Source: Candidatus Omnitrophota bacterium (lineage in GTDB: Bacteria > Omnitrophota > Gorgyraeia > 2-02-FULL-51-18). From it: a stretch of 64,000 nucleotides of DNA. The DNA lies in the NCBI GenBank assembly GCA_016206805.1, contig JACQQX010000054.1, positions 3,743-67,742 of the forward strand. The letters run 5' to 3'. The number at the start of each line of letters is the position of its first letter. Position 1 is the first letter of the stretch. The position numbers were made by a program, and so were the translations under genes. Of this stretch, positions 7,397-39,916 are shown piece after piece. Below the pieces are notes generated by a model, which saw only the letters and a list, made by a program, of their open reading frames with translations, ran no database searches and was not told where the DNA came from.

Positions 7397-7732
7397 TCAG
7401 AAAAAACAAGTTTCTAAAATACCCAGCGCCTCGTTCAGGAATTCCGAGGACGCGCGCTCGACATATTTGATCTTGCGGCTGCGATAATCGATGGACTTGA
7501 CCTGGTCCACCATGACCCATCCGGTCAAAGAGGATTGGGGCGGGATCGGGACATGAAAGGGAATTTTCCGATCCGTGTTGGTGATAGGGCAGGCTACAGC
7601 GAATCCCGTGTGCTTATTGAATAAATCATTGCTGACGATCAGTGCCGGCCTTCTTCCTTTTTGCTCATGACCGGCCTGAGGGTCAAACGTCAAAATAACC
7701 AGGTCCCCCTTTTTGGGGATATAGCCGGGCAC
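7397..7732 (-). CDS. mazF: MazF/PemK family endoribonuclease toxin
   Basis: 111 aa. PKKGDLVILTFDPQAGHEQKGRRPALIVS...CPITN is the typical PemK/MazF fold signature. GTG start directly after the mazE stop. Confidence 0.88.
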   Translation of the reverse strand: MPGYIPKKGDLVILTFDPQAGHEQKGRRPALIVSNDLFNKHTGFAVACPITNTDRKIPFHVPIPPQSSLTGWVMVDQVKSIDYRSRKIKYVERASSEFLNEALGILETCFF

Positions 7733-9350: not shown

Positions 9351-11294
9351 TCACTGGGGTTTCATTAACATATCGACGGCAGTGGCCGACACTTCTTCGG
9401 TTGAAATCGCTTTCAGACACTCGAAGTTGATCGTGCAGCGATGCGCTAGACACGTCACGCAGCCGACATCCTTTTGAATAATTCGGTGTCCGGCGCCCAG
9501 CGGTTTCCATCGCGCGGCGCTTAAACCCGCCGCATTGCGCCCAAAAAGAGTCAGAACCGGCGTACCCACCGCCGCCGCCACATGCACGGGACCGGAGTCA
9601 TTGGAGATCAGGAGCCGGCAGCTTTTAAGAAAAATAGTCAGCTCTCGTAAGCTCAAACGACCCGTCAAATCCACCACGCCGTCACCGAGCCGGCTAGACA
9701 AAGCCTTCCCCAACTCCATTTCTTCTTTTCCGCCGATAAGTGCGATTGGTAGACCAAGCTTTTCTTTTAATTGGCGCGCCAACTCCGCGTACCGCTCCTG
9801 GGGCCAGCGCTTGGAAGGACAGCTCGCCCCCGGATGCAAAGCGATCATGCCACCGGATTTTGGTTTTTGAATGTCATAGGCCGTCAGCGGGATCTCAAAT
9901 TTCTTATCGGGTGAGGACTGGACTCCAAATGCCCGGACAACATCGAGGGTGTATTCGGATTCATGGCGCTTTCCCTCATGCCGCCTATCCGCCGCCCGAT
10001 GCGTCAATAAAAACGGCAAACGAGAATCAAACCCTACGCGGTACGGGATTCCGGCCAAGGCCGGTAAAAGATGAGAGCGCGTGCTGGGATGCAGAATAAA
10101 AACCACGTCAAAATTCCGCCGGCGGATTTCCTTGAGAAATCGCCAGTAGCCCAAAAGCGACCGATGCCTGCCCCCTTTTTCGTAACGATAAGGGATGACT
10201 TCATCCAAAAGCGGGTGCCCCTGCAACAAGTCCTGAGTGTAAGAACGAGTCATCAGCGACAGGTGCGCGTTAGGAAATTGTTCTTTCACGGCCTCCACCG
10301 CCGGAAGCGACAACGCCAAGTCCCCGATCCGGTCCAGCCGGATAAAAAGAACTCGGAGACCACCTGAACTTTTCCATTCATGGCCCAGGAGACGCCTGGC
10401 CTGCTCATAAACTTCCAGCGGCAAAAGCTCGATCATGCATTCGTGATGATAACGGCACTGGGCCTTTTCGCAAGGCGCGCAAAAAAGCGGCTTTCTCAAA
10501 GCAATGCTATGACCGGACCGCGGACCATACTTGCGGGGATCCGTCGGACCAAATAATGCCAACGTCGGAATATCCATCGCGTCGGCAATATGAAGCGGCG
10601 CGCTGTCATTGGTCACCACCAAAGAAGCGGCGCGAATCACGGATTTTAATTCCTCAAAACTTGTCTTGCCGCATAGATCCAGCGCCGCGTGCTTCATAAG
10701 GCTTTTTACTTTTTCCGCGTCTGGGGCGTCCTGTTTGTCGCCGACAAGCGCGATATCACAATCCTCATTCACAGCCAGGCGGTCGAGAAGCTCAGCATAA
10801 TATTCCGCCGGCCATTTTTTGATGTCACTTTTAGAGCCGATGGCCGCGACAACCAAACGCTTTTCTCCGTCAAAAAGTTTGGAGGGCGCCACAGAAAGAA
10901 GCGGTCCATCCGGTAATGAAGTATCCGCGATGCCCTCTAGCGCCGCCAGATGCCGCCGCGCCCGGTGCATCGACTGTTTGCGGAATAAAAAATAATTGTT
11001 CCGGCGTTTTGCCCCACCCAAAAGTCCGATCAGCGAATGACGCAAGTCGATAATGGTGTCATAGCGCTCCTCGCGAATCTTCGCCAGAAAACCAATCTTG
11101 CCGATCAACGAAATTTTTTTATTGTAGGGAATGAGTTTTTGCACGCGCGGGTCGGACTCCAGAACCACAGCAGCGGAGGGACTAGCCACCGCATGGATCT
11201 GAACTTCAGGGGATTGACGCTTAAGCGCCTCAAAAACCGGCAGCGTCAGAACAACATCGCCTAAGTTGGAAAGTGTAACAACAAGGATTTTCAT
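9351..11294 (-). CDS. tandem double GT9 glycosyltransferase (two heptosyltransferase-like domains in one polypeptide)
   Basis: 647 aa. Two GT9 N-termini: MKILVVTLSNLGDVVLTLPVFEALK... and LRVLFIRLDRIGDLALSLPAVEAVK... Two NDSxPxH(I/V)A motifs. Each half ends in a Cys-rich motif. Confidence 0.85.
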   Translation of the reverse strand: MKILVVTLSNLGDVVLTLPVFEALKRQSPEVQIHAVASPSAAVVLESDPRVQKLIPYNKKISLIGKIGFLAKIREERYDTIIDLRHSLIGLLGGAKRRNNYFLFRKQSMHRARRHLAALEGIADTSLPDGPLLSVAPSKLFDGEKRLVVAAIGSKSDIKKWPAEYYAELLDRLAVNEDCDIALVGDKQDAPDAEKVKSLMKHAALDLCGKTSFEELKSVIRAASLVVTNDSAPLHIADAMDIPTLALFGPTDPRKYGPRSGHSIALRKPLFCAPCEKAQCRYHHECMIELLPLEVYEQARRLLGHEWKSSGGLRVLFIRLDRIGDLALSLPAVEAVKEQFPNAHLSLMTRSYTQDLLQGHPLLDEVIPYRYEKGGRHRSLLGYWRFLKEIRRRNFDVVFILHPSTRSHLLPALAGIPYRVGFDSRLPFLLTHRAADRRHEGKRHESEYTLDVVRAFGVQSSPDKKFEIPLTAYDIQKPKSGGMIALHPGASCPSKRWPQERYAELARQLKEKLGLPIALIGGKEEMELGKALSSRLGDGVVDLTGRLSLRELTIFLKSCRLLISNDSGPVHVAAAVGTPVLTLFGRNAAGLSAARWKPLGAGHRIIQKDVGCVTCLAHRCTINFECLKAISTEEVSATAVDMLMKPQ

Positions 11295-12307
11295 TTCACC
11301 GGCCTATTCAATAACTCCCTTGCGGCCCGCATCGCTTCTTCGGGCTTGATCCAGTCCATGCACACCCGATAATTGCAGGAGCGAAAATAGCAGGGAATTT
11401 CACAGCCTACGTCTTTTCTTAAAACAACAATAGGCCCGTTTCCAACCGGGCCGGTTTCCTCGTGGGAGGTTGGTCCGTACAAACCCACAATCGGTGTGGA
11501 CTGACTGGCCGCCAGATGAATGGGGCCTGAGTCGTTGGAAAGAATGAGTTTTACTTTTTTAAGGAGCGCTCCCAGCGTGTCCAAAGACGTTTCGCCGCAT
11601 AGTGACACGACGCGCGGATTCTCAAAATGAGAAACGATCGAGTCCACAAGCTTCGTCTCCCCTTTTGTGCCGCAGAGAATCACAGGACCCGGAAACTCCT
11701 GGAGAAATGATTCAATCCACTTTTTGAAATACTCCACCGGCCAGCGCTTGAGATCCCAATTCCCGCCCGCGTGCACAACAACGGCATTCTCCATACTCAT
11801 GACGCCATGTTCTGTCAGAAGTCCGGTCAGCTCATCAAAAGCCGCTGGGGCCGGATAAAAATCAAGCGCTCGGCCATCAGCCGGAATACCCAGCGCTTCC
11901 ACTAAATGCAGAAAATAATCAACCTTGTGCAACCGTTGCCGTGGAACCGGAACGGCCGTCGTCAACCACCTCGACGACACCGAATAACCGGCCCGATCGG
12001 GGATCCCGGCAAAGGCCGCCCACAATACTTTTGTTTTGGAACGGTGAAAAAAAATAGCTTTATCAAAATGCCTGGCTTTCAAAAGACCGATGAGCTTGAG
12101 CGATCCCCATGAAATAAAAGGGGCGCGATCATCATAAGGAAGGATTTCATCCAGATGCGGATTGTGACGCAAAACCGGCATCACGCGCTCCGGCGCCAGA
12201 CAAGCGATGTGCGCTTTGGGATGGGCTTTACGGATCGCGCGGATGGTCGGAGTCGAACAAAGGACATCCCCAACCCAGTTTTGGTTGACGATAAGAATCC
12301 GTGTCAT
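11291..12307 (-). CDS. GT9 glycosyltransferase (ADP-heptose:LPS heptosyltransferase-like)
   Basis: 338 aa. RILIVNQNWVGDVLCSTPTIRAIRK and SNDSGPIHLAA motifs. Confidence 0.85.
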   Translation of the reverse strand: MTRILIVNQNWVGDVLCSTPTIRAIRKAHPKAHIACLAPERVMPVLRHNPHLDEILPYDDRAPFISWGSLKLIGLLKARHFDKAIFFHRSKTKVLWAAFAGIPDRAGYSVSSRWLTTAVPVPRQRLHKVDYFLHLVEALGIPADGRALDFYPAPAAFDELTGLLTEHGVMSMENAVVVHAGGNWDLKRWPVEYFKKWIESFLQEFPGPVILCGTKGETKLVDSIVSHFENPRVVSLCGETSLDTLGALLKKVKLILSNDSGPIHLAASQSTPIVGLYGPTSHEETGPVGNGPIVVLRKDVGCEIPCYFRSCNYRVCMDWIKPEEAMRAARELLNRPVK

Positions 12308-13074
12308 GCGGTAGAGATTGGGTGGCGTTTTTTACCCAAATGATAAAGGCCTGTGGTTTTGGCCCAAAAACGGAAGAGATTGCCATCCCGGTCAGAAACT
12401 TTGATGCGATGCAGCGCGTAAAGATGATGACGCGTCTTGCCGTGATTGGTGGTGACCGCTCCCGCATAACCCGCTTTTTGAGCCACCTCCATCGCCTTTT
12501 GCGTCACGCCTCCCGCCGGATAACTCAAAAGCGTTATGGGATGTCCTAAAACGTCTTCCAGCCTCTTTTTGGAATCCATCATTTCTACGGCCGCTTGGGC
12601 CTCACTCACCTTCGGAAGAAAAGCGTGCGTCACCGTATGGCTTCCCACTTCCATGCCCGAATCATCCAATATTTTTAAATCTTCCTCGGAAAGCCATTGG
12701 TCTTTATTGATATTTTCGGTGATCATAAAAAACGCGGCCGGAAAACCCATTTTCTTCAGCACCGGAAAAGCGTTGGTAAAATTATCCAGATTGCCGTCAT
12801 CAAACGTGATGGCCACGGTTTTAGGATCTATCCGCTTGCCGGAACGCAAGCGCTCCACAATGTTCTCGACTCGCGTCACGCGATACCCATGGGTTTTTAA
12901 AAATTCCATTTGGCGGCGAAAATTTTCAGGCCTCACATTCAGCGAGGAAACCAGCGGCGCGTCGCTCACCTGGTGATACATCAAAATGGGGACTTCGTAA
13001 TTGGCCCGAAAAAAAAGATAAAACGCGGCCAATACCGCCGCCAGGACGAGAAATCTTTTTTTGATCCCCTTCAT
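12304..13074 (-). CDS. polysaccharide deacetylase (NodB homology domain), membrane-anchored
   Basis: 256 aa. N-terminal TM segment, ILMYHQV and TFDDGNLDNFTNAFPVLKKMGFPAAFF motifs. Confidence 0.85.
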   Translation of the reverse strand: MKGIKKRFLVLAAVLAAFYLFFRANYEVPILMYHQVSDAPLVSSLNVRPENFRRQMEFLKTHGYRVTRVENIVERLRSGKRIDPKTVAITFDDGNLDNFTNAFPVLKKMGFPAAFFMITENINKDQWLSEEDLKILDDSGMEVGSHTVTHAFLPKVSEAQAAVEMMDSKKRLEDVLGHPITLLSYPAGGVTQKAMEVAQKAGYAGAVTTNHGKTRHHLYALHRIKVSDRDGNLFRFWAKTTGLYHLGKKRHPISTA

Positions 13075-15158
13075 GCGGGTACCGGTTCTTTCTTCAGAGA
13101 ATGCAGCACCGCGTCCAATATTTCCTGGACTTCAATCCGCTTCATGCACACCAGCCCTATCGGGCAGCTTCTCAGGTAGCAAGGGCTGCACTGCACCTCC
13201 TTCCAAAAAACCTGGTAGCGTGAGGGCGGCACAAGATGCCGCCGCGGGTCTGTGGGCCCAAAAATTGCAATGAGCGGCACATTTACGCCCGAGGCGATAT
13301 GCATGGGAGCTGAGTCCGAACTGATGAATACCTGGCAACGCCGGACAAGCGAAATAAGCTCGGTAATCGTGGTCTTGCCCACGGCATTGATGGGTTTATT
13401 GCGGGTTTGACGCAATAATTCTTCGGCTAGCGCGGCATCTTCCCGGGAACCCGTGATGACCACACGAATATTGTGTTTGGCCAGTTCGTCGCAGAGTTTG
13501 GCGAAGTTTTCAATCGGCCATTGTTTGGTCGGCCAGCGCGGCGAAGAGCCGGGATTGATCCCTACCAAAGTTTGGCTGGGCGCCACCCATTGCGAGCGCA
13601 TGAAATCGCTGACACTGGCTTCTTCATCCTTTTCCGTCCAAAGCTCAAGCTTCTTGTCCACCGTTTCGATGCCCAAAAGCTTCAACACCATAAACTGGTG
13701 TTCCAGCGGAGGCATGGCGCCGCTGGATCCCCTTGCTCTGCGATTCAAAAGAAAAGACCATTTGCCATTGTCATGTCCGGCGCGCGTCCGGGCCCCGCAA
13801 AGAAAAGCGATCAGATGACTCAAACGATTATTTTGAAGGTCCAATACGATATCAAAATCCTCTTTGGCCAAAAGCATCGCCATTTTGAGCGCCGACCATA
13901 GACGCGGCCCTTCCTCTTCATAGACAATGGCGTCATTCACGTAAGGACAGTTCCGAATGATTTTGCGAGACTTGCGTCCCACCAGCACCGAAATCCACGC
14001 GTCGGGAAAGCGCTCACGAACCGCGCGGATCGATGGAACGCTCAAGATGACATCCCCTAGCGCGCTGAGTTTCACGATGAGAATTCTTTTCTTGGCCGCG
14101 GCTTCTTGATACACTTCGAGTGTTTTTTGAAACATCAGTTCCAGCCCAAACTGGCTTTCGACTTTGCCGCGAAGTGACGCGGCCAATCGCCTGCCCAGCT
14201 CCGGCTCTTTTAAAATCCGCAGCGCCGCATCCGCCAAAAGACGCGGGTCATTGGGCGGCACGAGCAGTCCATCTTTTTCGTTTTCGATGATATCGATCAA
14301 GCCCCCCACGCGAGTCGCGACGACGGGCACGCGGCAAGCTCCCGCCTCGATCGCCACGCGCCCAAAAGCTTCCTCGCCCACCGACGGCACCACCAAAAGC
14401 GACATGCGGGAAATAAGGTCGGGGATGTCATAGCGCGTGCCCAAGAACTCAACGTTGGAAGCAAGCCCCAAGCGCTTGGTCAGCGCCAAAAGCTCTTCTT
14501 TGTACTGCGGCTTGGGCGCGTCTCCGATGATTTGAATTTTAACTTGAGGAAACACGCGCGCCACGCGCGCCATGGCCTTCAAAAAAAGCGGATGTCCCTT
14601 GATCGGCGTCAGGCGGCCCACAAGCCCTATCACCATTTCCTTGGGGGTTTCTGTCGCGGGTTTAAATTCACCCAGATTCACTCCGCGATGAATCAACCGG
14701 ATCTTGGAATGCGGGACACCGAAGTCATCGCGCATGCGCTTACCGATGATGCGGCTGGCGACAATGACAAGCTTCCCCCATCCCATGATACGGCTCATTA
14801 AATGATCGCTGTAAAAACCATGACAAGTGGTGATAAAAGGCACTTGTGCGCGGCGGCTGACCCAATAAGCGATGATGGCCGGCACGCGACTGCGCGCATG
14901 GATCACCTCAATCCCCTCATCTTTGACAATGCGCGTCAAAGCCCGGACCGAAGTGAAAATGGAAAAGGGTGATTTTTTATGCACCGGCAATGCGTAATGA
15001 AGGACGCCGGCTGAAACCAAATCCCCGACCAGCGGGCCGCCGGCTGAAGCCACAAAAGCCTTATGGCCTTTCTGCGCCAAATATTTGGCCAAGTCCACGG
15101 TTCCGCGCTCCACGCCGCCGGATTTGAGCTCTGGAAGAATCTGCAGGATGCGCATCAA
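13071..15158 (-). CDS. GT4-GT9 fusion glycosyltransferase
   Basis: 695 aa. N-terminal GT4 (RILQILPELKSGGVERGTVDL...EAFGRVAIEAGACRVPVVATRVGG). C-terminal GT9 (RILIVKLSALGDVILSVPSIRAVR...SSDSAPMHIA). Confidence 0.85.
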   Translation of the reverse strand: MMRILQILPELKSGGVERGTVDLAKYLAQKGHKAFVASAGGPLVGDLVSAGVLHYALPVHKKSPFSIFTSVRALTRIVKDEGIEVIHARSRVPAIIAYWVSRRAQVPFITTCHGFYSDHLMSRIMGWGKLVIVASRIIGKRMRDDFGVPHSKIRLIHRGVNLGEFKPATETPKEMVIGLVGRLTPIKGHPLFLKAMARVARVFPQVKIQIIGDAPKPQYKEELLALTKRLGLASNVEFLGTRYDIPDLISRMSLLVVPSVGEEAFGRVAIEAGACRVPVVATRVGGLIDIIENEKDGLLVPPNDPRLLADAALRILKEPELGRRLAASLRGKVESQFGLELMFQKTLEVYQEAAAKKRILIVKLSALGDVILSVPSIRAVRERFPDAWISVLVGRKSRKIIRNCPYVNDAIVYEEEGPRLWSALKMAMLLAKEDFDIVLDLQNNRLSHLIAFLCGARTRAGHDNGKWSFLLNRRARGSSGAMPPLEHQFMVLKLLGIETVDKKLELWTEKDEEASVSDFMRSQWVAPSQTLVGINPGSSPRWPTKQWPIENFAKLCDELAKHNIRVVITGSREDAALAEELLRQTRNKPINAVGKTTITELISLVRRCQVFISSDSAPMHIASGVNVPLIAIFGPTDPRRHLVPPSRYQVFWKEVQCSPCYLRSCPIGLVCMKRIEVQEILDAVLHSLKKEPVPA

Positions 15159-17026
15159 CTAATCCTTCGCACGGCTTGTTTTATTGCATCTTCATCTCCT
15201 GAAGGCTGGCGATGCCCATTGCCGGAAGATTCGCTTAAAGCCCGGCTGGCCGCTTGCGGCAGGGTTTCCGGCGTAACGATTGTAATTTTTCCTTGATCCG
15301 ATAAATGACTCAAAAAATCCATGACTTTGGCCTTGGGCGGCGTTCCTGACGGCAGAAACACCAACACCGGCTTTCCCCCCGCAACGGCTTCAGAAACCAT
15401 GGACACCGACTCTCCGGAAACGATAAAAAGATCGGACTGTATCAAAATCGCTTCCATCGTCCCGGCCGGATTGGACTGGTTGGCAATCACTAAAAGCGGG
15501 CAACGTTGGGTATCGGCAAATGTTTTTTTGAGCAAGGCTTCCGCCGCTGCCGGCGTTCTTCGTGAAGAGGTGATCAGTAACAGCGCTTGGGTTTCTTCGC
15601 CGGCCCGGCCGACCGCCTGAGCCAATCCCTCAGTCAAGGCATTGCCCACCAAAAAACCGATGTGTTTTTTGCCCTGGGCTAGCGGCGCGCCTGTGGACTG
15701 GGGCTTTGAAGAAAGCGCCATGGATGTCACAAAAACATTCTCCGCGGCCGTCAAATGGTCATGCAGCGGCACGATCACCGCGTTAAACCGTTTCACGGGG
15801 ACTGACGGCTTATGAATCACCAGCGATTTGGCGCTATTTTCCTTTTTCACAAAAAGATTCACTCCCACCAGCGACGAGCCGCAGGAAATCACCGCGTCCG
15901 CGTAATTGGCGATAATCGACTGATAGGTGCTAGGCTCCAAAACCCATTGATAAAAAACCCCCGGAAACGGAACATGCCCGCGGCAGAGAATACAAAGCGC
16001 TTCCGCTGATCGCCGTAAAAATGGGTTTTTATACCGAACATCGATGATGGTGACGCGCGTGCGTTCATCGGCTATGCCGCACCTGGCGCGCTGCTCGCGG
16101 AAAACCTCCGCGGCGGCCATGGACTGACGATAATGGCCTGCCTTGCCATCGCTCAACACCACGACAAAACGGTCCGGGGAAGATTTCCAGCGCCGATGAG
16201 CCCACAACCACTGACTGGGATAGGCGCGGATTTTTTCTTCAAGACGGTTGGCAAACTTTTGCAAGACGTCGCCTTCCAGCGGCTCCTCGATTTCCAAAAG
16301 ATGGCCTCTGCCCTGACGGGAAACAAAAATAGGAAAGATCAGCGCGTGGGTCCGCTCCGCGAAAACCTCGGCGCCGGTCGGGCTGGACGACAACCTTCCA
16401 AAAAACCGGACAAAGGTTCCGGTTTTTCCGGCGTCCTGGTCTCCCAGGATTCCAATAATCCGCCCGCTTTTAAGCGCGCGCAGGATTTCACGAACCGGCA
16501 TGCCCTTGCCTATCATTTGCGCGCCTTGCGAACTGCGAAGCCCATTGAGAAACGCGTCGGAACGGGGATGTTTTTGCGCGCGCGCCAGCGCCAAAAGCGG
16601 GTAGCCTTTAAGGCCCGCCACCACATTTAAAATCTCCCAATTGCCAAAGTGCGCCGATAAAAAAATGATCCCCCGTCCGCTAGCCAGCGCCCGCTCAAAT
16701 TTTTCAAGACCGGTGATTTTGATCCGTTCTTCCAAGTACCGCTTGTCCATCTCGGGAAAACGGAGCATCTCCACCGCCGTCATCGCCACATGCCCAAAAG
16801 ACTGCCGCGCAATGCGCTTCATTTGGCGCCGGTCGAGCTCTCCCGCAAAAACAGATCGGACGTTTTTCATCGCGATCGGGCGCCTTTTGGACATCAAATA
16901 CACGAGAAAACCGATACCGCGCGCCACCGCCAAAGCCGCAGCAGGCGGAAGAAAACGGAAAATAAACCGCGCCGAACGGGCGGTGTTAAGGATTAAGGCA
17001 TCTTCGAAGGAAATCTTCTTCATCAT
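15155..17026 (-). CDS. LpxL/HtrB-type lipid A late acyltransferase fused to an ELM1/DUF1022-type domain
   Basis: 623 aa. N-terminal lysophospholipid acyltransferase family (AHFGNWE...GILGDQD). C-terminal ELM1-like motifs (LSDGKAGH, VIVPLHD, ITSSRRTP, SGESVSMVSEAVAGGKPV). Confidence 0.8.
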   Translation of the reverse strand: MMKKISFEDALILNTARSARFIFRFLPPAAALAVARGIGFLVYLMSKRRPIAMKNVRSVFAGELDRRQMKRIARQSFGHVAMTAVEMLRFPEMDKRYLEERIKITGLEKFERALASGRGIIFLSAHFGNWEILNVVAGLKGYPLLALARAQKHPRSDAFLNGLRSSQGAQMIGKGMPVREILRALKSGRIIGILGDQDAGKTGTFVRFFGRLSSSPTGAEVFAERTHALIFPIFVSRQGRGHLLEIEEPLEGDVLQKFANRLEEKIRAYPSQWLWAHRRWKSSPDRFVVVLSDGKAGHYRQSMAAAEVFREQRARCGIADERTRVTIIDVRYKNPFLRRSAEALCILCRGHVPFPGVFYQWVLEPSTYQSIIANYADAVISCGSSLVGVNLFVKKENSAKSLVIHKPSVPVKRFNAVIVPLHDHLTAAENVFVTSMALSSKPQSTGAPLAQGKKHIGFLVGNALTEGLAQAVGRAGEETQALLLITSSRRTPAAAEALLKKTFADTQRCPLLVIANQSNPAGTMEAILIQSDLFIVSGESVSMVSEAVAGGKPVLVFLPSGTPPKAKVMDFLSHLSDQGKITIVTPETLPQAASRALSESSGNGHRQPSGDEDAIKQAVRRIS

Positions 17027-19397: not shown

Positions 19398-20288
19398 TTA
19401 TGCTCTCGGGTGCGCCTTGGCGTAAGCTTCTTTCAATCGAGTTGTCGACACATGCGTGTAAATCTGCGTCGTGGATAAATTCTCATGTCCTAAAAGCTCC
19501 TGCACCGAACGCAAATCAGCGCCGCGGTTTAAAAGATGCGTCGCGAAGGAGTGCCGAAGCGTGTGCGGAGAAACATTCTCGCGCCGGCAGGTTTTCTCAA
19601 TGTATTCATCGACCACTCTCCTGACACTCCGAGTCGTCAGACGCGAACCTCGATTGTGGCGCGAATGATTTAAAAAAAGCGGTTTGGCGTCGGCATCCTT
19701 GCTCTGACGGCGCGCCTCCAAATACCGGCGAATCGCGCGCAGCGCCTGGCCGCCGATCGGGCAGAGCCGCTCTTTTTTTCCCTTGCCCAGCACCCGGCAA
19801 ACCCCGCCGATAAAATCAATCCCGTGAACGTCTAGCCCAACCAATTCCGACACGCGCATCCCGGTAGAATAAATGGTTTCCAATAGCGCGCGATCCCGGC
19901 GGCCGCTCAAATCATCCTCCGGAGACTCCAAAAGCCGCTGAATCTCCCCCTCATCCAGCACCATTGGAAGTTTTTTCTGGAGTTTTGGCGTGGACAACAA
20001 CATCAGCGGATTTTTCTTCACAAAACCCTCCCTCACCAGAAAGCGATAATAAGTGCGGAGGGTCGCCACATGACGGGCGACCGTGCGTTTGGAAAAACCT
20101 TTTTCATTCAAATGCGCCAGATAGCGCCTGAAAAAAACGAGATCCGCTTCCTCCAAAGACACGTTTTCCAGGAAACGCCGGAATCGCCGCAAATCCGAGG
20201 CGTAGCTGGAAAGCGTCAGCGGAGAATAATTCTTCTCGATCTTCAGATAATAGAAAAATTTTTCGAGCGATTTACTCGTCTGATCCAT
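19398..20288 (-). CDS. xerC: tyrosine site-specific recombinase XerC/XerD family
   Basis: Catalytic signature ...HTLRHSFATHLL...LGHENLSTTQIYTHV. I prefer the ATG at 20288 (MDQTSKSLEKFF...). The track ORF to 20432 overlaps the topA 3' end. Confidence 0.88.
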   Translation of the reverse strand: MDQTSKSLEKFFYYLKIEKNYSPLTLSSYASDLRRFRRFLENVSLEEADLVFFRRYLAHLNEKGFSKRTVARHVATLRTYYRFLVREGFVKKNPLMLLSTPKLQKKLPMVLDEGEIQRLLESPEDDLSGRRDRALLETIYSTGMRVSELVGLDVHGIDFIGGVCRVLGKGKKERLCPIGGQALRAIRRYLEARRQSKDADAKPLFLNHSRHNRGSRLTTRSVRRVVDEYIEKTCRRENVSPHTLRHSFATHLLNRGADLRSVQELLGHENLSTTQIYTHVSTTRLKEAYAKAHPRA

Positions 20289-22512
20289 CCGCGCCGTCCT
20301 TTGCTTCGTTTTTGGAAGTTTCGGAGGGCAAGCGGTTGGCGATGAAGGTGCATTCGGGGTATTGGCTGCAGCCATAAAAAGAGCGGCCTTTGCCGGAACG
20401 GGCGCGGCGCCGAACAAGTTGGCCATTGCCACATTGAGGGCATGCCACGCCGGTCGGCAGGGATTTCGCGTTTTTACAATCCGGCCAACCGGAGCAGCTC
20501 ATAAACCGTCCATGACGGCCCCATTTGATAACCATGGGTTTTCCGCATTTGTCGCAAAGCTCATCCGTCGGTTCCGCTTCCCGTTTCACGGTCTGCATTT
20601 GATCTTTGGCTACATTCACTTCCCCGCTGAAGTGGCCATAAAAGTTGCGCACCACCTCCACCCACTGAGCCTTCCCTTCCTCAATCCTGTCCAAGTCCTC
20701 TTCCATGGTCGCTGTGAAATCAAATTCCAACAGCTTCGAAAAAGATTTAACGAGTAAATCCGTGATTAGCATCCCAAGCTCCGTCGGCAAGAGAGCGCCG
20801 CCTTCGCGCCGGATATAGTCGCGGCTGGTCAGTGTTTGAATAATCGGCGCATACGTCGAAGGCCGACCGATCCCCTGCTCTTCAAGCGCCTTCACAAGCG
20901 AAGCGTCCGTGAAACGTCCGGGCGGCTTTGTAAAATGTTGATTGGGTTCGATTTTGACCAGCTGCAATGCTTCGGCGACGGCCAGTGGCGGAAGAATCTT
21001 GTCCGCATCTTCGGTCGTGCGGCCCGACACCGCCAAAAACCCCGGAAACTCAATACGGCTGCCGGTGGACCGGAAAATACAAATGTCTGCGGTGATATCC
21101 ACCGTGACCTGCTCCACAATGGCCGGCGTCATTTGGCTGGAAACATGCTGCTCCCAGATCAGCGAATATAATTTAAACTGGTCCGGCGCTAAATACCGCT
21201 CAATATCCTGAGGGCGCCTGAGAACAGACGTGGCGCGAATAGCTTCATGCGCTTCCTGCGCTTGTTTTTTGGATTTATAAACATTCGGTTTGGCGGGCAA
21301 ATAATCTTTTCCATACGTTTTGGAAATAAACTCACGAACCTCTGTCATCGCCCCGTCAGAAATCCGCACGGAATCAGTGCGCATGTACGTGATAAGACCC
21401 ACGCTTCCCTCGCTGCCGATATCAACGCCCTCGTAAAGGGATTGGGCAATGCGCATGGTTTTGGCCGCCGGGAAACGTAAAGCGTTATAGGCGGACTGCT
21501 GGAGCTTGCTGGTCGTAAAAGGGGCCGAAGGATTGCGTTTTTTATTTTGTTTCTTTAAATCTTTGACGACAAATGCGGCAGACTCGATCTTTTTAAGAAT
21601 GCCCGCGGCTTCTTCTTGTTTTTTCAAATCGGCTTTTTCTTCTCCGATTTTTTCAAGCTTGGCCGTAAAAGACGGGTATTCGCCTTTTTCCTTTTTAAGT
21701 TCGGCTTCTATCGTCCAGTATTCTTCGGGCTTAAACGCCTGGATTTCCCGCTCGCGATCCACGATGAGACGAAGCGCCACCGACTGCACGCGGCCGGCTG
21801 AAAGACCTTTGCCTACCTTCTGCCACAAAAGCGGACTGAGGGAATAACCGACGAGCCTATCCAGTACGCGGCGGGCCTGCTGGGCATCCACCAAGTCCAT
21901 ATTGATCTCGGTGGGATGTTCAAACGCCTTGGTGACGGCTTCTTTAGTGATTTCATTGAACACGACGCGGGTGACTTTCTTGCCTTCACCCAACTCGTTC
22001 TTCAAATGCCAGCTGATCGCCTCGCCCTCACGGTCCGGATCGCAGGCCAGGTAAATCTCGCTTTTATTTTTGGCTTTGGCTTTCAATTCCTTCAGCATTT
22101 TCTTCTTGTCGCGCACCACAATGTACTGCGGCTTAAAGTCGTGCTCGATGTCGATGCCCATCTTGCTTTTGGGCAGATCGACGAGGTGCCCCATGGAAGC
22201 GGCCACTTCGAAGCCGGGGCCCAAATATTTATGAATGGTTTTGCATTTGGCCGGAGATTCGACGATCACCAGAGCCCCTGAATGGTGAGCCTGTCGAACC
22301 ATCTTTTTGCGGGCCCCTCCTCCGACAAATTGAACGATTTCCACCACATCTCCTTCCTTCAAAAGGGTTTCGGCAAGCTGGTCCTTGGGCAAAATTTCAT
22401 AATTAAGCTCCACCACCACCCGCTCTTTGGGGAGCGAAAGCCGCGCCAGAAGCCCGGACAAGGAAAGCGGCTTATCAAAAACCTTTTTTTCACCGTTCAG
22501 CTGAATATTCAT
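20272..22512 (-). CDS. topA: DNA topoisomerase I with an in-frame N-terminal ThiS-like ubiquitin-fold domain
   Basis: 746 aa. Residues 1-66 are ThiS-like and end VEIVQFVGGG. There is no stop, and the frame continues ARKKMVRQAHHSGALVIVESPAKCK (Toprim), then the topoisomerase IA core and C-terminal Zn-ribbon Cys4 motifs. An internal ATG lies at 22302. Confidence 0.9.
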   Translation of the reverse strand: MNIQLNGEKKVFDKPLSLSGLLARLSLPKERVVVELNYEILPKDQLAETLLKEGDVVEIVQFVGGGARKKMVRQAHHSGALVIVESPAKCKTIHKYLGPGFEVAASMGHLVDLPKSKMGIDIEHDFKPQYIVVRDKKKMLKELKAKAKNKSEIYLACDPDREGEAISWHLKNELGEGKKVTRVVFNEITKEAVTKAFEHPTEINMDLVDAQQARRVLDRLVGYSLSPLLWQKVGKGLSAGRVQSVALRLIVDREREIQAFKPEEYWTIEAELKKEKGEYPSFTAKLEKIGEEKADLKKQEEAAGILKKIESAAFVVKDLKKQNKKRNPSAPFTTSKLQQSAYNALRFPAAKTMRIAQSLYEGVDIGSEGSVGLITYMRTDSVRISDGAMTEVREFISKTYGKDYLPAKPNVYKSKKQAQEAHEAIRATSVLRRPQDIERYLAPDQFKLYSLIWEQHVSSQMTPAIVEQVTVDITADICIFRSTGSRIEFPGFLAVSGRTTEDADKILPPLAVAEALQLVKIEPNQHFTKPPGRFTDASLVKALEEQGIGRPSTYAPIIQTLTSRDYIRREGGALLPTELGMLITDLLVKSFSKLLEFDFTATMEEDLDRIEEGKAQWVEVVRNFYGHFSGEVNVAKDQMQTVKREAEPTDELCDKCGKPMVIKWGRHGRFMSCSGWPDCKNAKSLPTGVACPQCGNGQLVRRRARSGKGRSFYGCSQYPECTFIANRLPSETSKNEAKDGADGSDE

Positions 22513-23543
22513 ATCTTGGAAAATCTCTTTCCCGGAAGTTCCTTGACCAGCCCCTTAAGCTCCAGTAGAGCCAGAAACGAAGCCGTCTCGCTCACGGTAA
22601 AGCCTGTTTCCGAAATAATGCCGTCCATCTGCAAAGCCTCGGCGTCTAAAAGATCGAGAATCTTATTTTCTTCCTTGCCCAGTGCCAGATTTTTCAGACG
22701 GTTTTCTCCGTTTTGGGTTTTTGCTTCCAATCCCAGATCGCTCAAAATATCGGCGACGGAAGTCACCATCTTGGCGCCTTGTTTTAAAAGCGCGTTGGTT
22801 CCGAGCGACCGGGACGAATCAATATTGCCGGGCACCGCGAAAACTTCACGGCCCTCTTCCAGCGCGCAGTCCGCGGTGATCAAAGCCCCGCTTTTTGCTT
22901 TGGCCTCGACCACCAGCACGGCATTTGAAAGGCCGCTGATGATGCGGTTTCGCATGGGAAAATAAGCGGCTAGCGGCGCCATGCCCATCGGGTATTCGGA
23001 AATCAAAGCCCCTCTTTTTAAAATAGCTTCGGCCAATTTTTTGTGCTGACGGGGATAAATCGTCGAAAGACCGCAGCCAAAAACAGCCAGTGTCACGCCA
23101 TCCGCCTCCAGCGCTCCCTCATGCGCGGCGGCGTCAATGCCCTCCGCCAAACCACTGACAATCGTCACTCCGGCGGCGGCCATCTGGCGGGAAAAACGTT
23201 TGGCGGTTTCCCGTCCGTAAGTCGAGGCCAGCCGCGAACCCACCACGGCAATCTTCTGTCCGCCGGCGGGCAAGCTGCCCTTCACATACAAAAGAATAGG
23301 GGGATCGTAAATGGCTTTGAGCTCGGCAGGATAGCGCTCGTCAAAAATCCCAATCATGTCGACGCCGGCATCTTCGGCTTTTTTTATTTCAACATCCGCT
23401 TTTTTGAGAAGACCAGGATCGTTGAGGCCGGCCAGGACCGCATCCAAACTTCCGGAGGACTCATAAAGCCGTTTAAAAGTAACGGCGCCCATACCCTCCG
23501 CCAGTGTGATGGCCATCAGTTTTTTCAACGCTTCGGGTTTCAT
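22509..23543 (-). CDS. dprA: DNA processing protein DprA (Smf)
   Basis: 344 aa. VVGSRLASTYG...SGLAEGIDAAAHEGAL...VVEAKAKSGALITA is a typical DprA Rossmann core. Confidence 0.9.
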   Translation of the reverse strand: MKPEALKKLMAITLAEGMGAVTFKRLYESSGSLDAVLAGLNDPGLLKKADVEIKKAEDAGVDMIGIFDERYPAELKAIYDPPILLYVKGSLPAGGQKIAVVGSRLASTYGRETAKRFSRQMAAAGVTIVSGLAEGIDAAAHEGALEADGVTLAVFGCGLSTIYPRQHKKLAEAILKRGALISEYPMGMAPLAAYFPMRNRIISGLSNAVLVVEAKAKSGALITADCALEEGREVFAVPGNIDSSRSLGTNALLKQGAKMVTSVADILSDLGLEAKTQNGENRLKNLALGKEENKILDLLDAEALQMDGIISETGFTVSETASFLALLELKGLVKELPGKRFSKI

Positions 23544-32963: not shown

Positions 32964-32983
32964 TTTAGGTGTCAGTCCTCGAC
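32964..32983. repeat. left terminal inverted repeat of the RayT unit
   Basis: TTTAGGTGTCAGTCCTCGAC is the perfect reverse complement of 33912..33931. It overlaps the transposase stop codon. Confidence 0.9.
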
Positions 32984-33874
32984 TTTCGACATTTGGATAG
33001 CCTGCTCTAGCTTTGTCAGTCTATTTCTCAGATCTTTGTCGCGGAGAAGTCTCGGCTCCAGTCTTCTGACTGAGGCACTTACGGCCGAATGGGAAATATT
33101 GAAGCGCTCCCCTATTTGCCTTTGTGTCGCACGCGAGAACTTCCACATCGCATAAATGGCTGTTTTTTTATCATGGCCCTCAAGATGTTTGATCACGTCT
33201 TCGGGCGGTTTCCTAAACAACGCCTTTTTGCCTGCAAAGTCTTTGTTTTTCTTCGGTGAGATCTTGGCTTTCAACCGGTCCAGGAATGCTTCCGATCCGA
33301 TCATAAACCCTCCGATAGCTTCCTTGACGGGGTCTCGACCGGCTTCAAGGCCCTCCATCACAAACCGCCGATAAGCCGCCTTTGATTCAAAGCTTTCAAG
33401 CGTAAACTCCCTGTGAAGGTAGTCGGGCGCTTTTTCCTTAAGGTAGTGCTTCATGCTGGACCAGGGGTGATCTTCCGGTTTCTGGACCATCTTGGCTCTG
33501 ACAGGGTTTAAGTGGACATAGCGCGACAGCTCTAGAAAATAGTGGTCTTTGTCCACCAAGAGCGCCTTGTAGCGGCCCTGAAAGAGATGACCGTAGCGCT
33601 TGTGCCTGCGGTTAAAGCGAACGGTGTAAAGCCCGATAAGCCGTTTCATGGCATGAGAGAGATTGGAATCTTTTGTTTCAAGAAGCAAATGAAAGTGATT
33701 GGGCATCAAGCTGTAGGCATGAACAAGGAAATCAAATCGAGCGGCACAGTCGGCCAAGATCCCAAGGAACAGCTCATAGTCTACGTCGCTTCTGTAAATC
33801 TCCTTTCTCTCATTGCCGCGAGAGTAAACGTGATAAACGGCGTTTGGGAATTCCATTCTTAAGGGCCTTGCCAT
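32972..33874 (-). mobile_element. REP-associated tyrosine transposase-like (RayT / IS200-like Y1 HUH) gene with a C-terminal DnaA-C-like HTH
   Basis: 300 aa. AVYHVYSRGNERKEIY, HUH motif MPNHFHLLLE, catalytic Tyr region LSRYVHLNPVRAKM, and C-terminal AIYAMWKFSRATQRQIGERFNISHSAVSASVRRLE. Confidence 0.8.
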
Positions 33875-36817: not shown

Positions 36818-37620
36818 TCCACCCAGCCGGACCAATGATCGGCGTTGATCTCTATGATCTTCGCGGTCGGAGGACTGCCCTCCTTCTGAACGAAATTTCG
36901 AGCGATGAAAGGCGGGACAATCTTATCTTTTCGGCCTACCAGGTGTTCTTGGGGGATCGCGGCGACTTTGGCCGCGACGTCCATGGGATCCAAAGAACCG
37001 CTCAAAGGACTCACGCGATGATGGCGGTTCACGGCCTCCGGATCAAGATTTCCGGCAATCGTCCTTAAAAAAACCGCGTCGTGCCGTCTGGCGGCCAAAA
37101 GGACCACCACCGCTCCTCCTCCCGAGTAGCCCGTAAGGCGCACTTTTTGAGCGCCGGCCTGTTGTTTCAACTCATTCACCGCGCGGTCCATCGCCGCGAT
37201 CACTTCTTCGGAGAATCGTTTTTCCGCCCAATAGACCGAGTCGCAAGGAGGTTCGACCGGCGCATACTGGCCGGGCCGCGCCAAATAAGCTACGTTGTCG
37301 GACGGATCTTTGGAAGCCAGCTCTAGGACGAGCGCGTGCCTGGGCGTCGGGTCATCCGAGAGCCTGTTTCGCGAACGCCAGGCCAGTCCGTCCCCTTCTA
37401 TATAGACATGAAGCGTCTCTCCGGGTCTTTTGAAGCGTGTGTATGAGGTGAGGACGAACGGATCCGCGGAGATCAGCGCTTTTTGAAAACCGCCGTTTCT
37501 GGCGAGGCTGTCCGCATCCAAGCGCGCGTTCAAAGAGGAAGAGAAAGTGGCGCATCCAGAGGAGATGCCCAGGAGAAGAATCACGGTCGCGCAGAGAGTC
37601 GGTTTTTTTAAGAGCATCAC
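36808..37620 (-). CDS. alpha/beta-hydrolase-fold lipoprotein (serine hydrolase)
   Basis: 270 aa. Lipobox LLLGISSGC, nucleophile elbow GYSGGG. Its 3' end overlaps the autotransporter 3' end by 10 nt (convergent). Confidence 0.65.
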   Translation of the reverse strand: MMLLKKPTLCATVILLLGISSGCATFSSSLNARLDADSLARNGGFQKALISADPFVLTSYTRFKRPGETLHVYIEGDGLAWRSRNRLSDDPTPRHALVLELASKDPSDNVAYLARPGQYAPVEPPCDSVYWAEKRFSEEVIAAMDRAVNELKQQAGAQKVRLTGYSGGGAVVVLLAARRHDAVFLRTIAGNLDPEAVNRHHRVSPLSGSLDPMDVAAKVAAIPQEHLVGRKDKIVPPFIARNFVQKEGSPPTAKIIEINADHWSGWVDQN

Positions 37621-39467: not shown

Positions 39468-39916
39468 TTGACTTCAATCTGACGCGAAGAAGGTCCGGCG
39501 TGCTTCATGGTTATTTTCAAATGTTTCGCTGGCAAAAGATTTCTTCCACGCTCGGCCCACTCGATTAGACAAACACCACCCGAGCGCATGCATTCCTCCG
39601 CCAAAAAAGCGTCTTCGCCCTCCACCCGCGCCAAACGATACCAGTCCAGATGATACACTTTTTCACGCCCGGCGTATTCATGAATCAATGTAAAAGTGGG
39701 ACTGGAAACCGTTTCATCGGCCTTTTTGACACCCAGTCCATGGGCTATCCCTTTGACCAGCGTCGTTTTGCCCGCGCCCAGCTCACCGGTCAAAGCAACC
39801 ACGTCCCCCGCTTTGAGCTGCTGGCCTATCGCTTGGCCTATCTTTCTGGTTTGGGCCAGTGAAATGGTTTTAAAAATGCTCAAAACCTTTTCCTTCCAGC
39901 AAAGAATAAGTCCCAT
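39464..39916 (-). CDS. tsaE: tRNA t6A37 biosynthesis ATPase TsaE
   Basis: 150 aa. GELGAGKTTLVKGI P-loop and SPTFTLIHEY motif. The start is uncertain, because the annotated start overlaps thiL by 47 nt. Confidence 0.85.
   Translation of the reverse strand: MGLILCWKEKVLSIFKTISLAQTRKIGQAIGQQLKAGDVVALTGELGAGKTTLVKGIAHGLGVKKADETVSSPTFTLIHEYAGREKVYHLDWYRLARVEGEDAFLAEECMRSGGVCLIEWAERGRNLLPAKHLKITMKHAGPSSRQIEVK

What the first reader, a model, noticed from the sequence alone, without database searches (positions are those of the whole stretch)
20272..22512. ThiS-like sulfur-carrier domain fused in frame, without a stop codon, to DNA topoisomerase I
- The first 66 codons of the topA ORF (22512..22315) read MNIQLNGEKKVFDKPLSLSGLLARLSLPKERVVVELNYEILPKDQLAETLLKEGDVVEIVQFVGGG.
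- That is the length, beta-grasp pattern and C-terminal Gly-Gly(-Gly) of ThiS. From memory, Bacillus-type ThiS also ends ...HFVGGG.
- I re-read the junction on the minus strand: GTC GGA GGA GGG GCC CGC AAA AAG ATG GTT CGA CAG. There is no stop codon, so translation continues into ...ALVIVESPAKCK, the canonical TopA N-terminus.
- ThiS needs a free GG carboxylate to be adenylated and thiocarboxylated, so a fusion either needs proteolytic release after GG (as in eukaryotic ubiquitin fusions or JAMM-processed bacterial carriers) or the domain has a new role on TopA.
- An internal ATG (22302) preceded by AGGAGG (formed by the Gly codons themselves) could also yield ordinary TopA. Two isoforms are therefore plausible.
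- No thiF, thiG, thiH or thiO is visible in the window. dprA-topA adjacency is common, but a ThiS wedge between them is not something I know of.
Basis: partly seen in the sequence, partly recalled or inferred. Interest (0 to 1): 0.72.

Follow-up and report, generated by a model that had tools for sequence, protein, structure and literature searches.

The report
ThiS sulfur carrier fused to TopA
In a large group of uncultured Omnitrophota bacteria, the small ubiquitin-like sulfur-carrier protein ThiS is encoded as one continuous protein with the essential enzyme DNA topoisomerase I, so these cells probably have to cut ThiS free, much as eukaryotes cut ubiquitin from its fusion proteins.

Summary
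ORF 20272..22512 (-) encodes 746 aa: a canonical ThiS (residues 1-66, TIGR01683 75.8 bits against a cutoff of 37.45), a 14-residue linker with no stop codon, then a complete TopA.

It is not an assembly error. 105 of the 120 best database relatives carry the same ThiS+TopA architecture. They are 54-74% identical to the window protein, and every one that has a name is Omnitrophica/Omnitrophota.

- **Junction:** in 104 full-length fusions Gly-Gly is invariant, while the Gly codons vary synonymously. The linker varies from a few to 35 residues, and about 60 in one fragment. AlphaFold2 predicts it disordered.
- **Internal start:** only the window protein has a Met in the linker, so the proposed internal-ATG isoform is not a conserved feature.
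- **Syntenic relatives:** all states occur. One has a clean separate thiS (…FVGGG*) with an in-frame topA. Two are split but keep tails after GGG (GGGA*, GGGARLAR*). Others have no thiS.
- **Window context:** no thiF, thiG, thiH, thiO or JAMM gene is present.

Best reading: a stop-codon-loss fusion of two adjacent genes. ThiS is probably released by cleavage after GG, as in MoaD-MoaE fusions. Cleavage is inferred, not shown. I found no published description. It is a new variant of a known kind and moderately interesting.

The parts
20272..22512 (-). Single 746-aa ORF: ThiS - linker - TopA (GenBank MBI4432816.1, annotated only as 'type I DNA topoisomerase')
22315..22512 (-). ThiS domain, residues 1-66, ending FVGGG. 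It keeps the family-invariant residues N6, G7, E35, N37, D55, E58 and G64-66.
   Evidence: TIGR01683 75.8 bits and PF02597 54.9 bits. PDB ThiS sequence hits. AF2 pLDDT 86-91 for residues 1-62 with beta-grasp secondary structure. Conservation profile matches free ThiS.
22315..22323 (-). Gly64-Gly65-Gly66 codons (GGA GGA GGG). This is the diglycine that would be the ThiS C-terminus and is the predicted cleavage site.
   Evidence: GG invariant in 104/104 fusions and GGG in 102/104. Codons vary synonymously between loci.
22273..22314 (-). Linker, residues 67-80 (ARKKMVRQAHHSGA). Variable, low-complexity and predicted disordered.
   Evidence: Linker median 6 aa, up to 35, about 60 in fragment P0124. 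pLDDT <50 for residues 63-77.
22300..22302 (-). In-frame ATG (Met71). A possible internal start, unique to this genome among the fusions examined.
   Evidence: AGGAGG at 22316..22321 lies 13 nt upstream.
20272..22272 (-). TopA proper, residues 81-746. Toprim 81-188 (E85, D158/D160), Topoisom_bac 203-621 with catalytic Tyr376 (codon 21385..21387), two C4 zinc ribbons (about residues 651-725).
   Evidence: TIGR01051 809 bits and Pfam. Invariant columns. Foldseek hits to E. coli, S. mutans and M. tuberculosis TopA.
22509..23543 (-). dprA, immediately upstream. Its TGA overlaps the thiS-topA ATG (ATGA), which suggests translational coupling.
19398..20288 (-). xerC-like tyrosine recombinase, immediately downstream. 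It overlaps the topA 3' end by 17 nt and belongs to the conserved synteny block.
   Evidence: Same gene order in L082-L091.

Best explanation
**What it is.** This is a real gene fusion, conserved across a lineage, between a canonical thiS and the housekeeping topA in a clade of Candidatus Omnitrophota. In these genomes thiS sits between dprA and topA. In most of them the thiS stop codon is missing, so the ribosome reads through a short, unconstrained spacer into the in-frame topA.

**How it probably works.** The product is most likely a precursor. The flexible ...VGGG tail and linker would be cut after Gly-Gly by a Ubl-processing peptidase. A JAMM/MPN+ enzyme of the Mec/DR0402 type is the obvious candidate. 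Cleavage would yield a normal 66-aa ThiS with a free glycine carboxylate for adenylation and thiocarboxylation, plus a TopA with a short Ala/Ser-initiated N-terminal extension.

**Shown here**
- The fusion exists and is widely distributed.
- The ThiS signature residues and GG are retained.
- The linker is disordered and variable.
- TopA is intact.
- Fused and split states interconvert.

**Inferred, not shown**
- The cleavage itself.
- The identity of the protease.
- That this ThiS still carries sulfur.
For: 1. **Real and widespread.** 105 of the 120 best full-length relatives have PF02597+Toprim+Topoisom_bac+Zn_ribbon. They are 54-74% identical and all named ones are Omnitrophica/Omnitrophota, some on contigs of up to 1.59 Mb. 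Independent fragments show the same junction.
2. **Constraint on GG at the protein level.** GG is 104/104 and GGG is 102/104. The Gly codons differ between loci: GGA GGA GGG, GGC GGC GGC, GGC GGC GGG, GGG GGC GGC. The residues immediately after vary freely in sequence and length.
3. **ThiS domain still under ThiS-type selection.** Mean pairwise identity is only 50%, against 68-77% for the TopA parts. Even so, N6, G7, E35, N37, D55, E58 and G64-66 are invariant or nearly so (98-100%), as in free-standing ThiS. Per-site conservation correlates with free ThiS at Spearman 0.83.
4. **Disordered junction.** AF2 gives a confident beta-grasp (pLDDT 86-91) and a confident TopA joined by a segment with pLDDT <50 (residues 63-77). 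The widely varying linker length argues against a fixed intramolecular docking geometry.
5. **Natural split variants in the same synteny.**
   - L091 has thiS ending exactly ...FVGGG-TAA, then 12 nt containing AAGGA, then the topA ATG, in the same frame. One stop-codon substitution would convert it to the fused form. It also shows this ThiS can be a normal free protein.
   - L089 (FVGGGA*) and L084 (FVGGGARLAR*) carry residues beyond GGG. These would also need C-terminal trimming.
   - The three split loci form one clade nested among fused clades in an NJ tree of the TopA core.
6. **Small residue after GGG.** It is Ala in 79 and Ser in 17 of 104, although Lys, Pro and Glu are common elsewhere in the linkers.
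7. **Precedent.** MoaD-MoaE linear fusions must be cleaved after the terminal Gly to be active (MoaX, PMC4326299). In Deinococcus the JAMM DR0402 does this (PMC8832034).
8. **Weak literature hints.** In the KO table of Seymour et al. 2023, one Omnitrophota genome lists thiS, topA, moaD, moeB and K21140 (mec, a JAMM, by my reading of KEGG), but no thiG or thiF. An Omnitrophica genome has thi4 clustered with thiS and thiF and lacks thiG (PMC13325395).
Against: - No protease, E1, ThiG or Thi4 was found in this window or in about 150 kb of related loci. I could not scan whole genomes, so the partner enzymes are unverified for any genome that carries the fusion.
- There is no proteomic evidence of cleavage.
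- ThiS and TopA have no known reason to be made in equal amounts, so the fusion gives no obvious advantage. It may simply be tolerated.
- GGG could be kept partly as a flexible hinge.
- The free-ThiS comparison set was chosen by similarity to the fusion profile, which inflates the correlation.
- The NJ tree has no support values, so the direction of change (fusion ancestral, or several independent fusions) is unresolved.
- The Omnitrophota KO evidence rests on two or three genomes from a truncated table.
Confidence: 0.5

Rival explanations
1. The fusion is stable and never cleaved. The ThiS module has lost sulfur-carrier function and serves TopA in cis. It could act as a folding, solubility or expression-enhancing N-terminal Ubl domain, like ubiquitin in Ub-ribosomal protein fusions before cleavage. 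It could also be a docking or regulatory domain, for example binding an E1-like or other partner.
For: - The architecture has been kept across deep divergence in the clade.
- The TopA N-terminus tolerates extensions of 4 to more than 60 residues.
- Engineered N-terminal ThiS and MoaD tags are reported to raise expression of fusion partners in E. coli (abstract of PMC3906898).
- No protease was found nearby.
Against: - It does not explain the absolute invariance of GG with synonymous codon variation.
- It does not explain why exactly the free-ThiS signature residues are retained.
- TopA does well without it in syntenic relatives, both with thiS absent (L083, L090, P0357) and with thiS split (L091, L089, L084).
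- Linker length is unconstrained and predicted disordered, which is unlike a domain with a fixed interface.
Confidence: 0.3
2. Ordinary TopA is made by internal initiation: in this genome at Met71 (22302), or elsewhere at near-cognate codons. The upstream ThiS part would then effectively be a separate cistron, so two isoforms coexist.
For: - In this window an in-frame ATG lies 13 nt downstream of AGGAGG.
- In split locus L089 topA restarts at an ATG 13 nt after GGAGG, so reinitiation in this region is feasible.
Against: - Only 1 of 104 fusions has any Met in the linker.
- Four other junctions have no ATG and non-SD Gly codons.
- The 13-nt spacing is beyond the usual 5-9 nt optimum.
- Internal initiation would not free the ThiS C-terminus, because ribosomes starting at codon 1 still make the fusion.
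Confidence: 0.1
3. The ThiS part is a functionless relic of an accidental read-through fusion that is drifting towards loss.
For: - The ThiS domain evolves faster than TopA (50% against 68-77% mean identity).
- It has been lost outright in some relatives, including P0357, where a low-complexity N-terminal extension takes its place.
Against: - Family-signature positions remain invariant even between pairs that are only 24% identical.
- All 104 domains are intact and full-length, and Pfam-positive.
- AF2 folds the domain confidently.
Confidence: 0.07
4. An assembly or sequencing artefact removed a stop codon.
For: None beyond the prior that short-ORF fusions in MAGs are often errors. One relative (L082/P0002) does carry a probable frameshift error, but inside topA, not at the junction.
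Against: - The same junction occurs in more than 100 distinct sequence clusters from NCBI, ENA, JGI and Logan assemblies.
- The identical protein appears in two assemblies.
Confidence: 0.01

Closest known systems
MoaD-MoaE linear fusions (M. tuberculosis MoaX; D. radiodurans DR2607 cleaved by JAMM DR0402; archaeal SAMP1-MoaE cleaved by HvJAMM1)
   Same: An N-terminal ThiS/MoaD-family beta-grasp sulfur carrier is joined through its Gly-Gly tail to a downstream protein. The carrier cannot work until the glycine carboxylate is exposed. Cleavage after Gly has been shown to be required (PMC4326299, PMC8832034).
   Different: - There the partner is the carrier's own enzymatic partner (MoaE). Here it is an unrelated essential DNA enzyme.
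- Neither cleavage nor a protease has been shown for ThiS-TopA.
ThiS-ThiG and ThiS-ThiF fusions; ThiS fused to sulfite reductase (Iyer, Burroughs & Aravind 2006, PMC1779556)
   Same: These involve the same carrier family in a fused state in bacteria. ThiS-ThiG fusions (P0130, P0136) also turned up among the hits to my profile.
   Different: - Those fusions link proteins of one pathway.
- 'Topoisomerase' does not occur at all in that survey or in the 2007 beta-grasp survey PMC1949818.
Eukaryotic ubiquitin fusion genes (Ub-L40/UBA52, Ub-S27a/RPS27A, polyubiquitin)
   Same: A Ubl is encoded head-to-tail, through GG, with an unrelated, abundant, essential housekeeping protein. The arrangement is conserved over long evolutionary time. 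The free Ubl is generated only by processing (established knowledge).
   Different: - Processing there is by cysteine DUBs.
- The carrier is a protein modifier, not a sulfur carrier.
- This is analogy only. No homology of the arrangement is implied.
C-terminally extended carriers trimmed by JAMM (QbsE/QbsD; CysO-Mec+)
   Same: Bacterial ThiS/MoaD-like proteins with residues beyond GG need a JAMM peptidase (established knowledge). The split variants here, GGGA* and GGGARLAR*, look like that.
   Different: Those systems have the JAMM and E1 genes in the same operon. Here none is adjacent.

Membership tests
ThiS sulfur-carrier family (TIGR01683 / PF02597) | Sequence match above curated family cutoffs | tested here: met
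   TIGR01683 75.8 bits (cutoff 37.45) and PF02597 54.9 bits (cutoff 22.5) for residues 1-66. phmmer hits to PDB ThiS 2K5P, 1TYG_B and 1F0Z.
ThiS sulfur-carrier family (TIGR01683 / PF02597) | Beta-grasp fold of about 66 residues | tested here: met
   The AF2 model gives pLDDT 86-91 for residues 1-62, with strands at 2-5, 8-11, 32-36 and 56-61 and a helix at 18-24. No separate fold search of the isolated domain was run.
ThiS sulfur-carrier family (TIGR01683 / PF02597) | Gly-Gly at the free C-terminus of the polypeptide | tested here: not met
   The GG motif is present and invariant, but in the encoded protein it is internal and followed by 680 residues. It would be met only after proteolysis. 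It is met directly in the split relative L091.
ThiS sulfur-carrier family (TIGR01683 / PF02597) | Genomic association with thiF plus thiG/thiH/thiO, or with thi4 | tested here: not met
   None is present in the 64-kb window or in the flanks of nine related loci. Only a ThiL-like gene and a NifS-like gene lie 17-20 kb away. Whole genomes could not be examined.
ThiS sulfur-carrier family (TIGR01683 / PF02597) | C-terminal adenylation and thiocarboxylate formation | not testable with these tools
   This is biochemical.
Bacterial DNA topoisomerase I (TIGR01051 topA_bact) | Full-length equivalog match with Toprim, the Topoisom_bac core and zinc ribbons | tested here: met
   809 bits (cutoff 456.4). 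PF01751, PF01131 and PF01396 x2. Foldseek to 4RUL, 6OZW and 1ECL, with TM up to 0.96 on the target.
Bacterial DNA topoisomerase I (TIGR01051 topA_bact) | Catalytic residues: Toprim Glu and DxD, and the active-site Tyr in the ...TYMRTDS motif | tested here: met
   E85, D158, D160, Y376, R378, T379 and D380 are invariant in 89 aligned relatives. Motif GLITYMRTDS is read directly.
Processed Ubl/sulfur-carrier linear fusion (MoaD-MoaE type) | Carrier at the N-terminus with GG at the junction | tested here: met
Processed Ubl/sulfur-carrier linear fusion (MoaD-MoaE type) | Downstream partner is the carrier's own pathway enzyme | tested here: not met
   The partner is TopA.
Processed Ubl/sulfur-carrier linear fusion (MoaD-MoaE type) | JAMM/MPN+ (or other) peptidase present in the genome, and cleavage after Gly | not testable with these tools
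   No JAB family hit in the window. The only hint is K21140 in one Omnitrophota genome in a published KO table. Cleavage needs an experiment.

The most novel reading that the evidence does not exclude
The ThiS module is not just a passenger. It would be a bacterial counterpart of ubiquitin-fusion genes with a regulatory meaning. Either TopA is made as an inactive or mislocalised pro-enzyme whose Toprim N-terminus is freed only when a GG-specific peptidase removes ThiS, or ThiS stays attached as a cis-acting Ubl that recruits an E1-like or JAMM partner to TopA. Either way, DNA topology control would be tied to the cell's sulfur-relay or Ubl machinery in Omnitrophota.
Probability: 0.15. Interest if true: 0.85.

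Novelty: new variant of a known kind. Interest (0 to 1): 0.55.

Why it matters
All known ThiS/MoaD chemistry needs a free Gly-Gly carboxylate. A whole bacterial clade that encodes its ThiS only as the N-terminus of an essential, unrelated enzyme therefore implies one of two things:
- an unrecognised, obligatory Ubl-processing step in bacteria, formally like ubiquitin-ribosomal protein fusions in eukaryotes;
- a new, non-carrier use of a ThiS domain on topoisomerase I.

The clade contains natural fused, split, tailed and thiS-less variants in one syntenic locus. That makes the question directly testable by comparative genomics (does a JAMM/E1 co-occur with the fused state?) and by simple expression experiments.

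There is also a practical annotation point. These proteins are labelled only 'type I DNA topoisomerase'. KO-based or name-based pathway reconstructions will therefore miss thiS, or count it oddly, in Omnitrophota thiamine and sulfur-relay predictions.

Tried and rejected
- **Profile search of 50%-identity representatives.** It found only 6 fusion fragments at E<=1e-30. Full-length fusions do not appear, presumably because they are clustered under ordinary TopA representatives, so this undercounts. The full-length search corrected it.
- **Last homologue search, with the 66-aa free ThiS of L091.** It returned only 2 candidates because of the word-index limit, so it could not size the split clade.
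- **Whole-genome presence of ThiF, ThiG, Thi4 or JAMM in fusion-bearing genomes.** No tool reaches beyond 10 kb of flank.
  - The KO table of Seymour et al. is truncated to about 2-3 genomes.
  - Their 'thiamine' module uses only thiC plus thiD, so their statement that thiamine synthesis is common does not bear on ThiS.
  - The supplement of PMC13325395 is not held.
- **afdb50 fold library.** It was unavailable. The PDB fold search returned only TopA structures.
- **Gly codons conserved as an SD sequence.** Rejected, because the codons vary.
- **Prepilin peptidase PilD as the protease.** It lies four genes upstream in the conserved synteny and cleaves after Gly. I consider this unlikely, because it is a membrane enzyme that recognises hydrophobic prepilin leaders.
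- **Alternative genetic code or a hidden stop.** There is no stop of any kind at the junction.


Full report
**1.

- The minus strand of the window carries one ORF, 20272..22512, of 746 codons.
- Its first 66 residues (MNIQLNGEKK...EIVQFVGGG) score 75.8 bits against the NCBIfam equivalog model for ThiS (TIGR01683, cutoff 37.45). They score 54.9 bits against Pfam ThiS (PF02597, cutoff 22.5).
- By sequence alone they also hit solved ThiS structures: 2K5P/3CWI, 1F0Z, and B. subtilis ThiS in the ThiS-ThiG complex 1TYG_B.
- The junction reads GTC GGA GGA GGG GCC CGC AAA AAG ATG GTT CGA CAG with no stop codon.
- From residue 81 (LVIVESPAKCKT) the protein is a complete bacterial topoisomerase I:
  - TIGR01051 scores 809 bits against a cutoff of 456.
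  - The Toprim Glu85 and Asp158/Asp160, the catalytic Tyr376 in GLITYMRTDS, and two C4 zinc ribbons are all present. These positions are invariant among 89 relatives.
- The dprA stop overlaps the start of this ORF (ATGA at 22512..22509), and xerC overlaps its end.

**2. It is not an artefact**

- The identical 746-aa protein is in GenBank (MBI4432816.1, 'Candidatus Omnitrophota bacterium', 73-kb contig). It is also in a separate Logan assembly of SRR12113385.
- A search with the full protein found the same four-domain architecture in 105 of the 120 best hits.
  - The architecture is PF02597 + Toprim + Topoisom_bac + Zn_ribbon.
  - The hits are 54-74% identical to the window protein and come from NCBI, ENA, JGI and Logan.
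  - Some lie on contigs of up to 1.59 Mb, and every named one is Omnitrophica/Omnitrophota.
- Fragments found with the N-terminal 170 residues, and with a junction profile run against 1.84 billion representatives, show the same junction.
- Outside this lineage the profile found only free ThiS and the already known ThiS-ThiG fusions.

**3. Anatomy of the junction across 104 full-length fusions**

- Gly-Gly is invariant (104/104). GGG occurs in 102; the two exceptions read CGG and SGG.
- The next residue is Ala (79) or Ser (17), with a few Lys, Gly, Gln and Thr.
- What follows is an A/K/G/S/P/E-rich spacer. Its median length is 6 residues, it reaches 35, and it is about 60 in fragment P0124. TopA then starts at ...A/S-LVIVESP.
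- At the DNA level the three Gly codons differ between loci: GGA GGA GGG here, and GGC GGC GGC, GGC GGC GGG and GGG GGC GGC elsewhere. The constraint is therefore on the protein, not on a Shine-Dalgarno-like GGAGG.
- Only the window protein has a Met anywhere in the linker, and the other four junctions I read contain no ATG. It is not part of the conserved design.

**4. The ThiS module is under ThiS-like selection**

- It evolves faster than TopA. Mean pairwise identity is 50%, against 68-77% for the TopA parts.
- N6, G7, E35, N37, D55, E58 and G64-66 are invariant or nearly so (98-100%) among the fusions.
- The same positions are invariant in 25 free-standing ThiS representatives. The per-site conservation profiles correlate at Spearman 0.83.
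- The caveat is that the free set was selected by similarity to the fusion profile.
- AlphaFold2, run with an 89-sequence alignment, gives three regions:
  - a confident beta-grasp, pLDDT 86-91 for residues 1-62;
  - a confident TopA;
  - a segment with pLDDT below 50 covering exactly the VGGG tail and linker, residues 63-77.
- This is a beads-on-a-string picture.

**5. Synteny and natural variants**

The gene order ilvBHC-leuA-aroE-pilD-aroC-aroK-dprA-[thiS-topA]-xerC-waaA-lpxK is conserved in fusions as distant as 55-66% identity. Within this same block I found every other state:

| State | Locus | What is there |
|---|---|---|
| Clean split | L091 | thiS of 66 codons ending ...FVGGG-TAA, then 12 nt including AAGGA, then the topA ATG in the same reading frame. 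The free ThiS protein is recorded from NCBI, Logan and ENA. |
| Split by in-frame stop | L089 | ...FVGGGA-TAA-GCC-ATG, followed by a 63-residue linker-like extension on TopA |
| Split by frameshift | L084 | ...FVGGGARLAR*, with the TopA frame open upstream through a K/R-rich linker-like stretch |
| thiS absent | L083, L090 | dprA directly followed by topA |
| thiS absent | P0357 | a low-complexity extension in place of ThiS |

- A neighbour-joining tree of the TopA core places the three split loci in one clade nested among several fused clades. It has no support values.
- Fusion and fission at this site evidently happen by single small mutations, and both states are viable.

**6. Mechanism**

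Shown here:
- This is a stop-codon-level fusion of two adjacent, in-frame genes.
- ThiS keeps its family signature, including GG.
- The spacer is unconstrained and disordered.
- TopA is intact and does not depend on the covalent link.

Inferred:
- ThiS is released by cleavage after GG. All known ThiS/MoaD chemistry uses the terminal glycine carboxylate (established knowledge). On that basis, retention of GG and of the carrier signature is most simply explained by release.
- The two 'tailed' split variants (GGGA*, GGGARLAR*) would need the same trimming. That suggests a C-terminal processing activity is available in the clade.

Precedent:
- MoaD-MoaE fusions are inactive until cut after Gly (MoaX, PMC4326299). 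In Deinococcus the JAMM peptidase DR0402 does this (PMC8832034).

Gaps:
- I could not verify the protease or E1. No ThiF, ThiG or JAB hit occurs in this window or in the flanks of related loci, and whole genomes are out of reach.
- The only hints come from the literature:
  - One Omnitrophota genome in Seymour et al.'s KO table lists thiS, topA, moaD, moeB and K21140 (mec/JAMM, by my reading of KEGG), without thiG or thiF.
  - An Omnitrophica genome has thi4 clustered with thiS and thiF and no thiG (PMC13325395). It raises the possibility that ThiS in this phylum serves Thi4 or another acceptor rather than ThiG.

I put cleavage at about 0.5.

**7. Rivals**

- **Stable, uncleaved fusion (about 0.3).** ThiS would act as a cis domain for solubility, expression or docking. 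This fits the long retention and the absence of a nearby protease. It leaves unexplained the GG invariance, the retained carrier signature, the free variation in linker length, and the viability of split and thiS-less relatives.
- **Internal initiation (about 0.1, this genome only).** It cannot free the ThiS C-terminus.
- **Decaying relic (about 0.07).** This is contradicted by the conserved signature.
- **Assembly error.** Excluded.

**8. Comparison with known systems and novelty**

- Known ThiS/MoaD fusions join pathway partners: ThiS-ThiG, ThiS-ThiF, sulfite reductase-ThiS, MoaD-MoaE and MoaD-AOR (PMC1779556).
- Neither that survey nor the 2007 beta-grasp survey contains the word 'topoisomerase'.
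- Searches for PF02597 with topoisomerase, and for sulfur carrier with topoisomerase I, found nothing relevant.
- The two Omnitrophota genome papers I checked mention neither topoisomerase nor ubiquitin.
- The proteins are in public databases but are named only 'type I DNA topoisomerase'.
- I classify this as a new variant of a known kind: a sulfur-carrier/Ubl linear fusion, here with a functionally unrelated, essential partner. That makes it formally closest to eukaryotic ubiquitin-fusion genes, by analogy only.

**9. Verdict**

- Its interpretation is partly supported. ThiS identity, the true fusion and the need for release or a new role all stand. The two-isoform idea is not general, and the artefact route is refuted.
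- Interest is 0.55. It is a real and undescribed clade-wide oddity with a clear, testable prediction. However, the most likely explanation is a tolerated fusion plus a processing step of a kind already known from MoaD-MoaE, and the key step is unproven.

Noticed in passing
window 9351-17026 (-): The LPS-core cluster next to the finding is full of other multi-domain fusions: a protein with two GT9 heptosyltransferase modules (9351-11294), a GT4+GT9 fusion (13071-15158), and a lipid A acyltransferase fused to an ELM1-like domain (15155-17026). The same fused architectures recur in related loci, so gene fusion of neighbours seems common in this lineage.
   Followed up: partly
L091 2172-2400; L089 4746-5010; L084 3464-3760: There are three natural 'split' versions of the thiS-topA junction: a clean GGG-stop with an RBS, GGGA-stop, and GGGARLAR-stop with a frameshift. 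I could not tell whether L084 and L089 are real or sequencing errors, because each comes from a single contig.
   Followed up: partly
window 39870-40787 (-) and 41643-42842 (-): A ThiL-like AIR-synthase-family protein (thiamine-monophosphate kinase type) and a class-V aminotransferase (NifS/IscS-like cysteine desulfurase) flank a TatD gene 17-20 kb from the ThiS fusion. They are the only thiamine- or sulfur-relay-related genes in the window.
   Followed up: partly
protein P0129, not in the window: A 259-aa protein reads ThiS...FVGGG-SPAR-ALVIISPGARSDIKRW and continues as a GT9-like heptosyltransferase. It is either a second kind of ThiS-X fusion in the same lineage or a chimeric contig.
   Followed up: no
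window 7397-7732, 42843-43109, 47908-48454 (-): Three toxin-antitoxin-type genes are scattered among housekeeping genes: MazF/PemK, ParE, and BrnT with a probable BrnA partner.
   Followed up: no
window 32972-33874 (-) and 34235-36817 (+): There is an IS200/Y1-transposase-like gene. Beside it lies the only large plus-strand gene, an 860-aa autotransporter with a Thr/Gly/Ala-rich passenger, in a window otherwise almost entirely minus-strand.
   Followed up: no
window 55317-59540 (-): A ClpC-like ATPase sits with an McsB-like and an McsA-like (UVR motif) gene. This arrangement is usually associated with Firmicutes, yet here it is in an LPS-making organism. McsB was recognised by sequence only and not scanned.
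   Followed up: no
window 36808-37620 (-) and 53943-55316 (-): Two sizeable ORFs (270 and 457 aa) have no Pfam match at E<=1e-5.
   Followed up: no
L082 337-2542: In the relative P0002 the thiS-topA gene is broken into two overlapping calls (241 + 512 aa) by a probable frameshift inside topA. The ThiS-TopA junction itself is intact.
   Followed up: no
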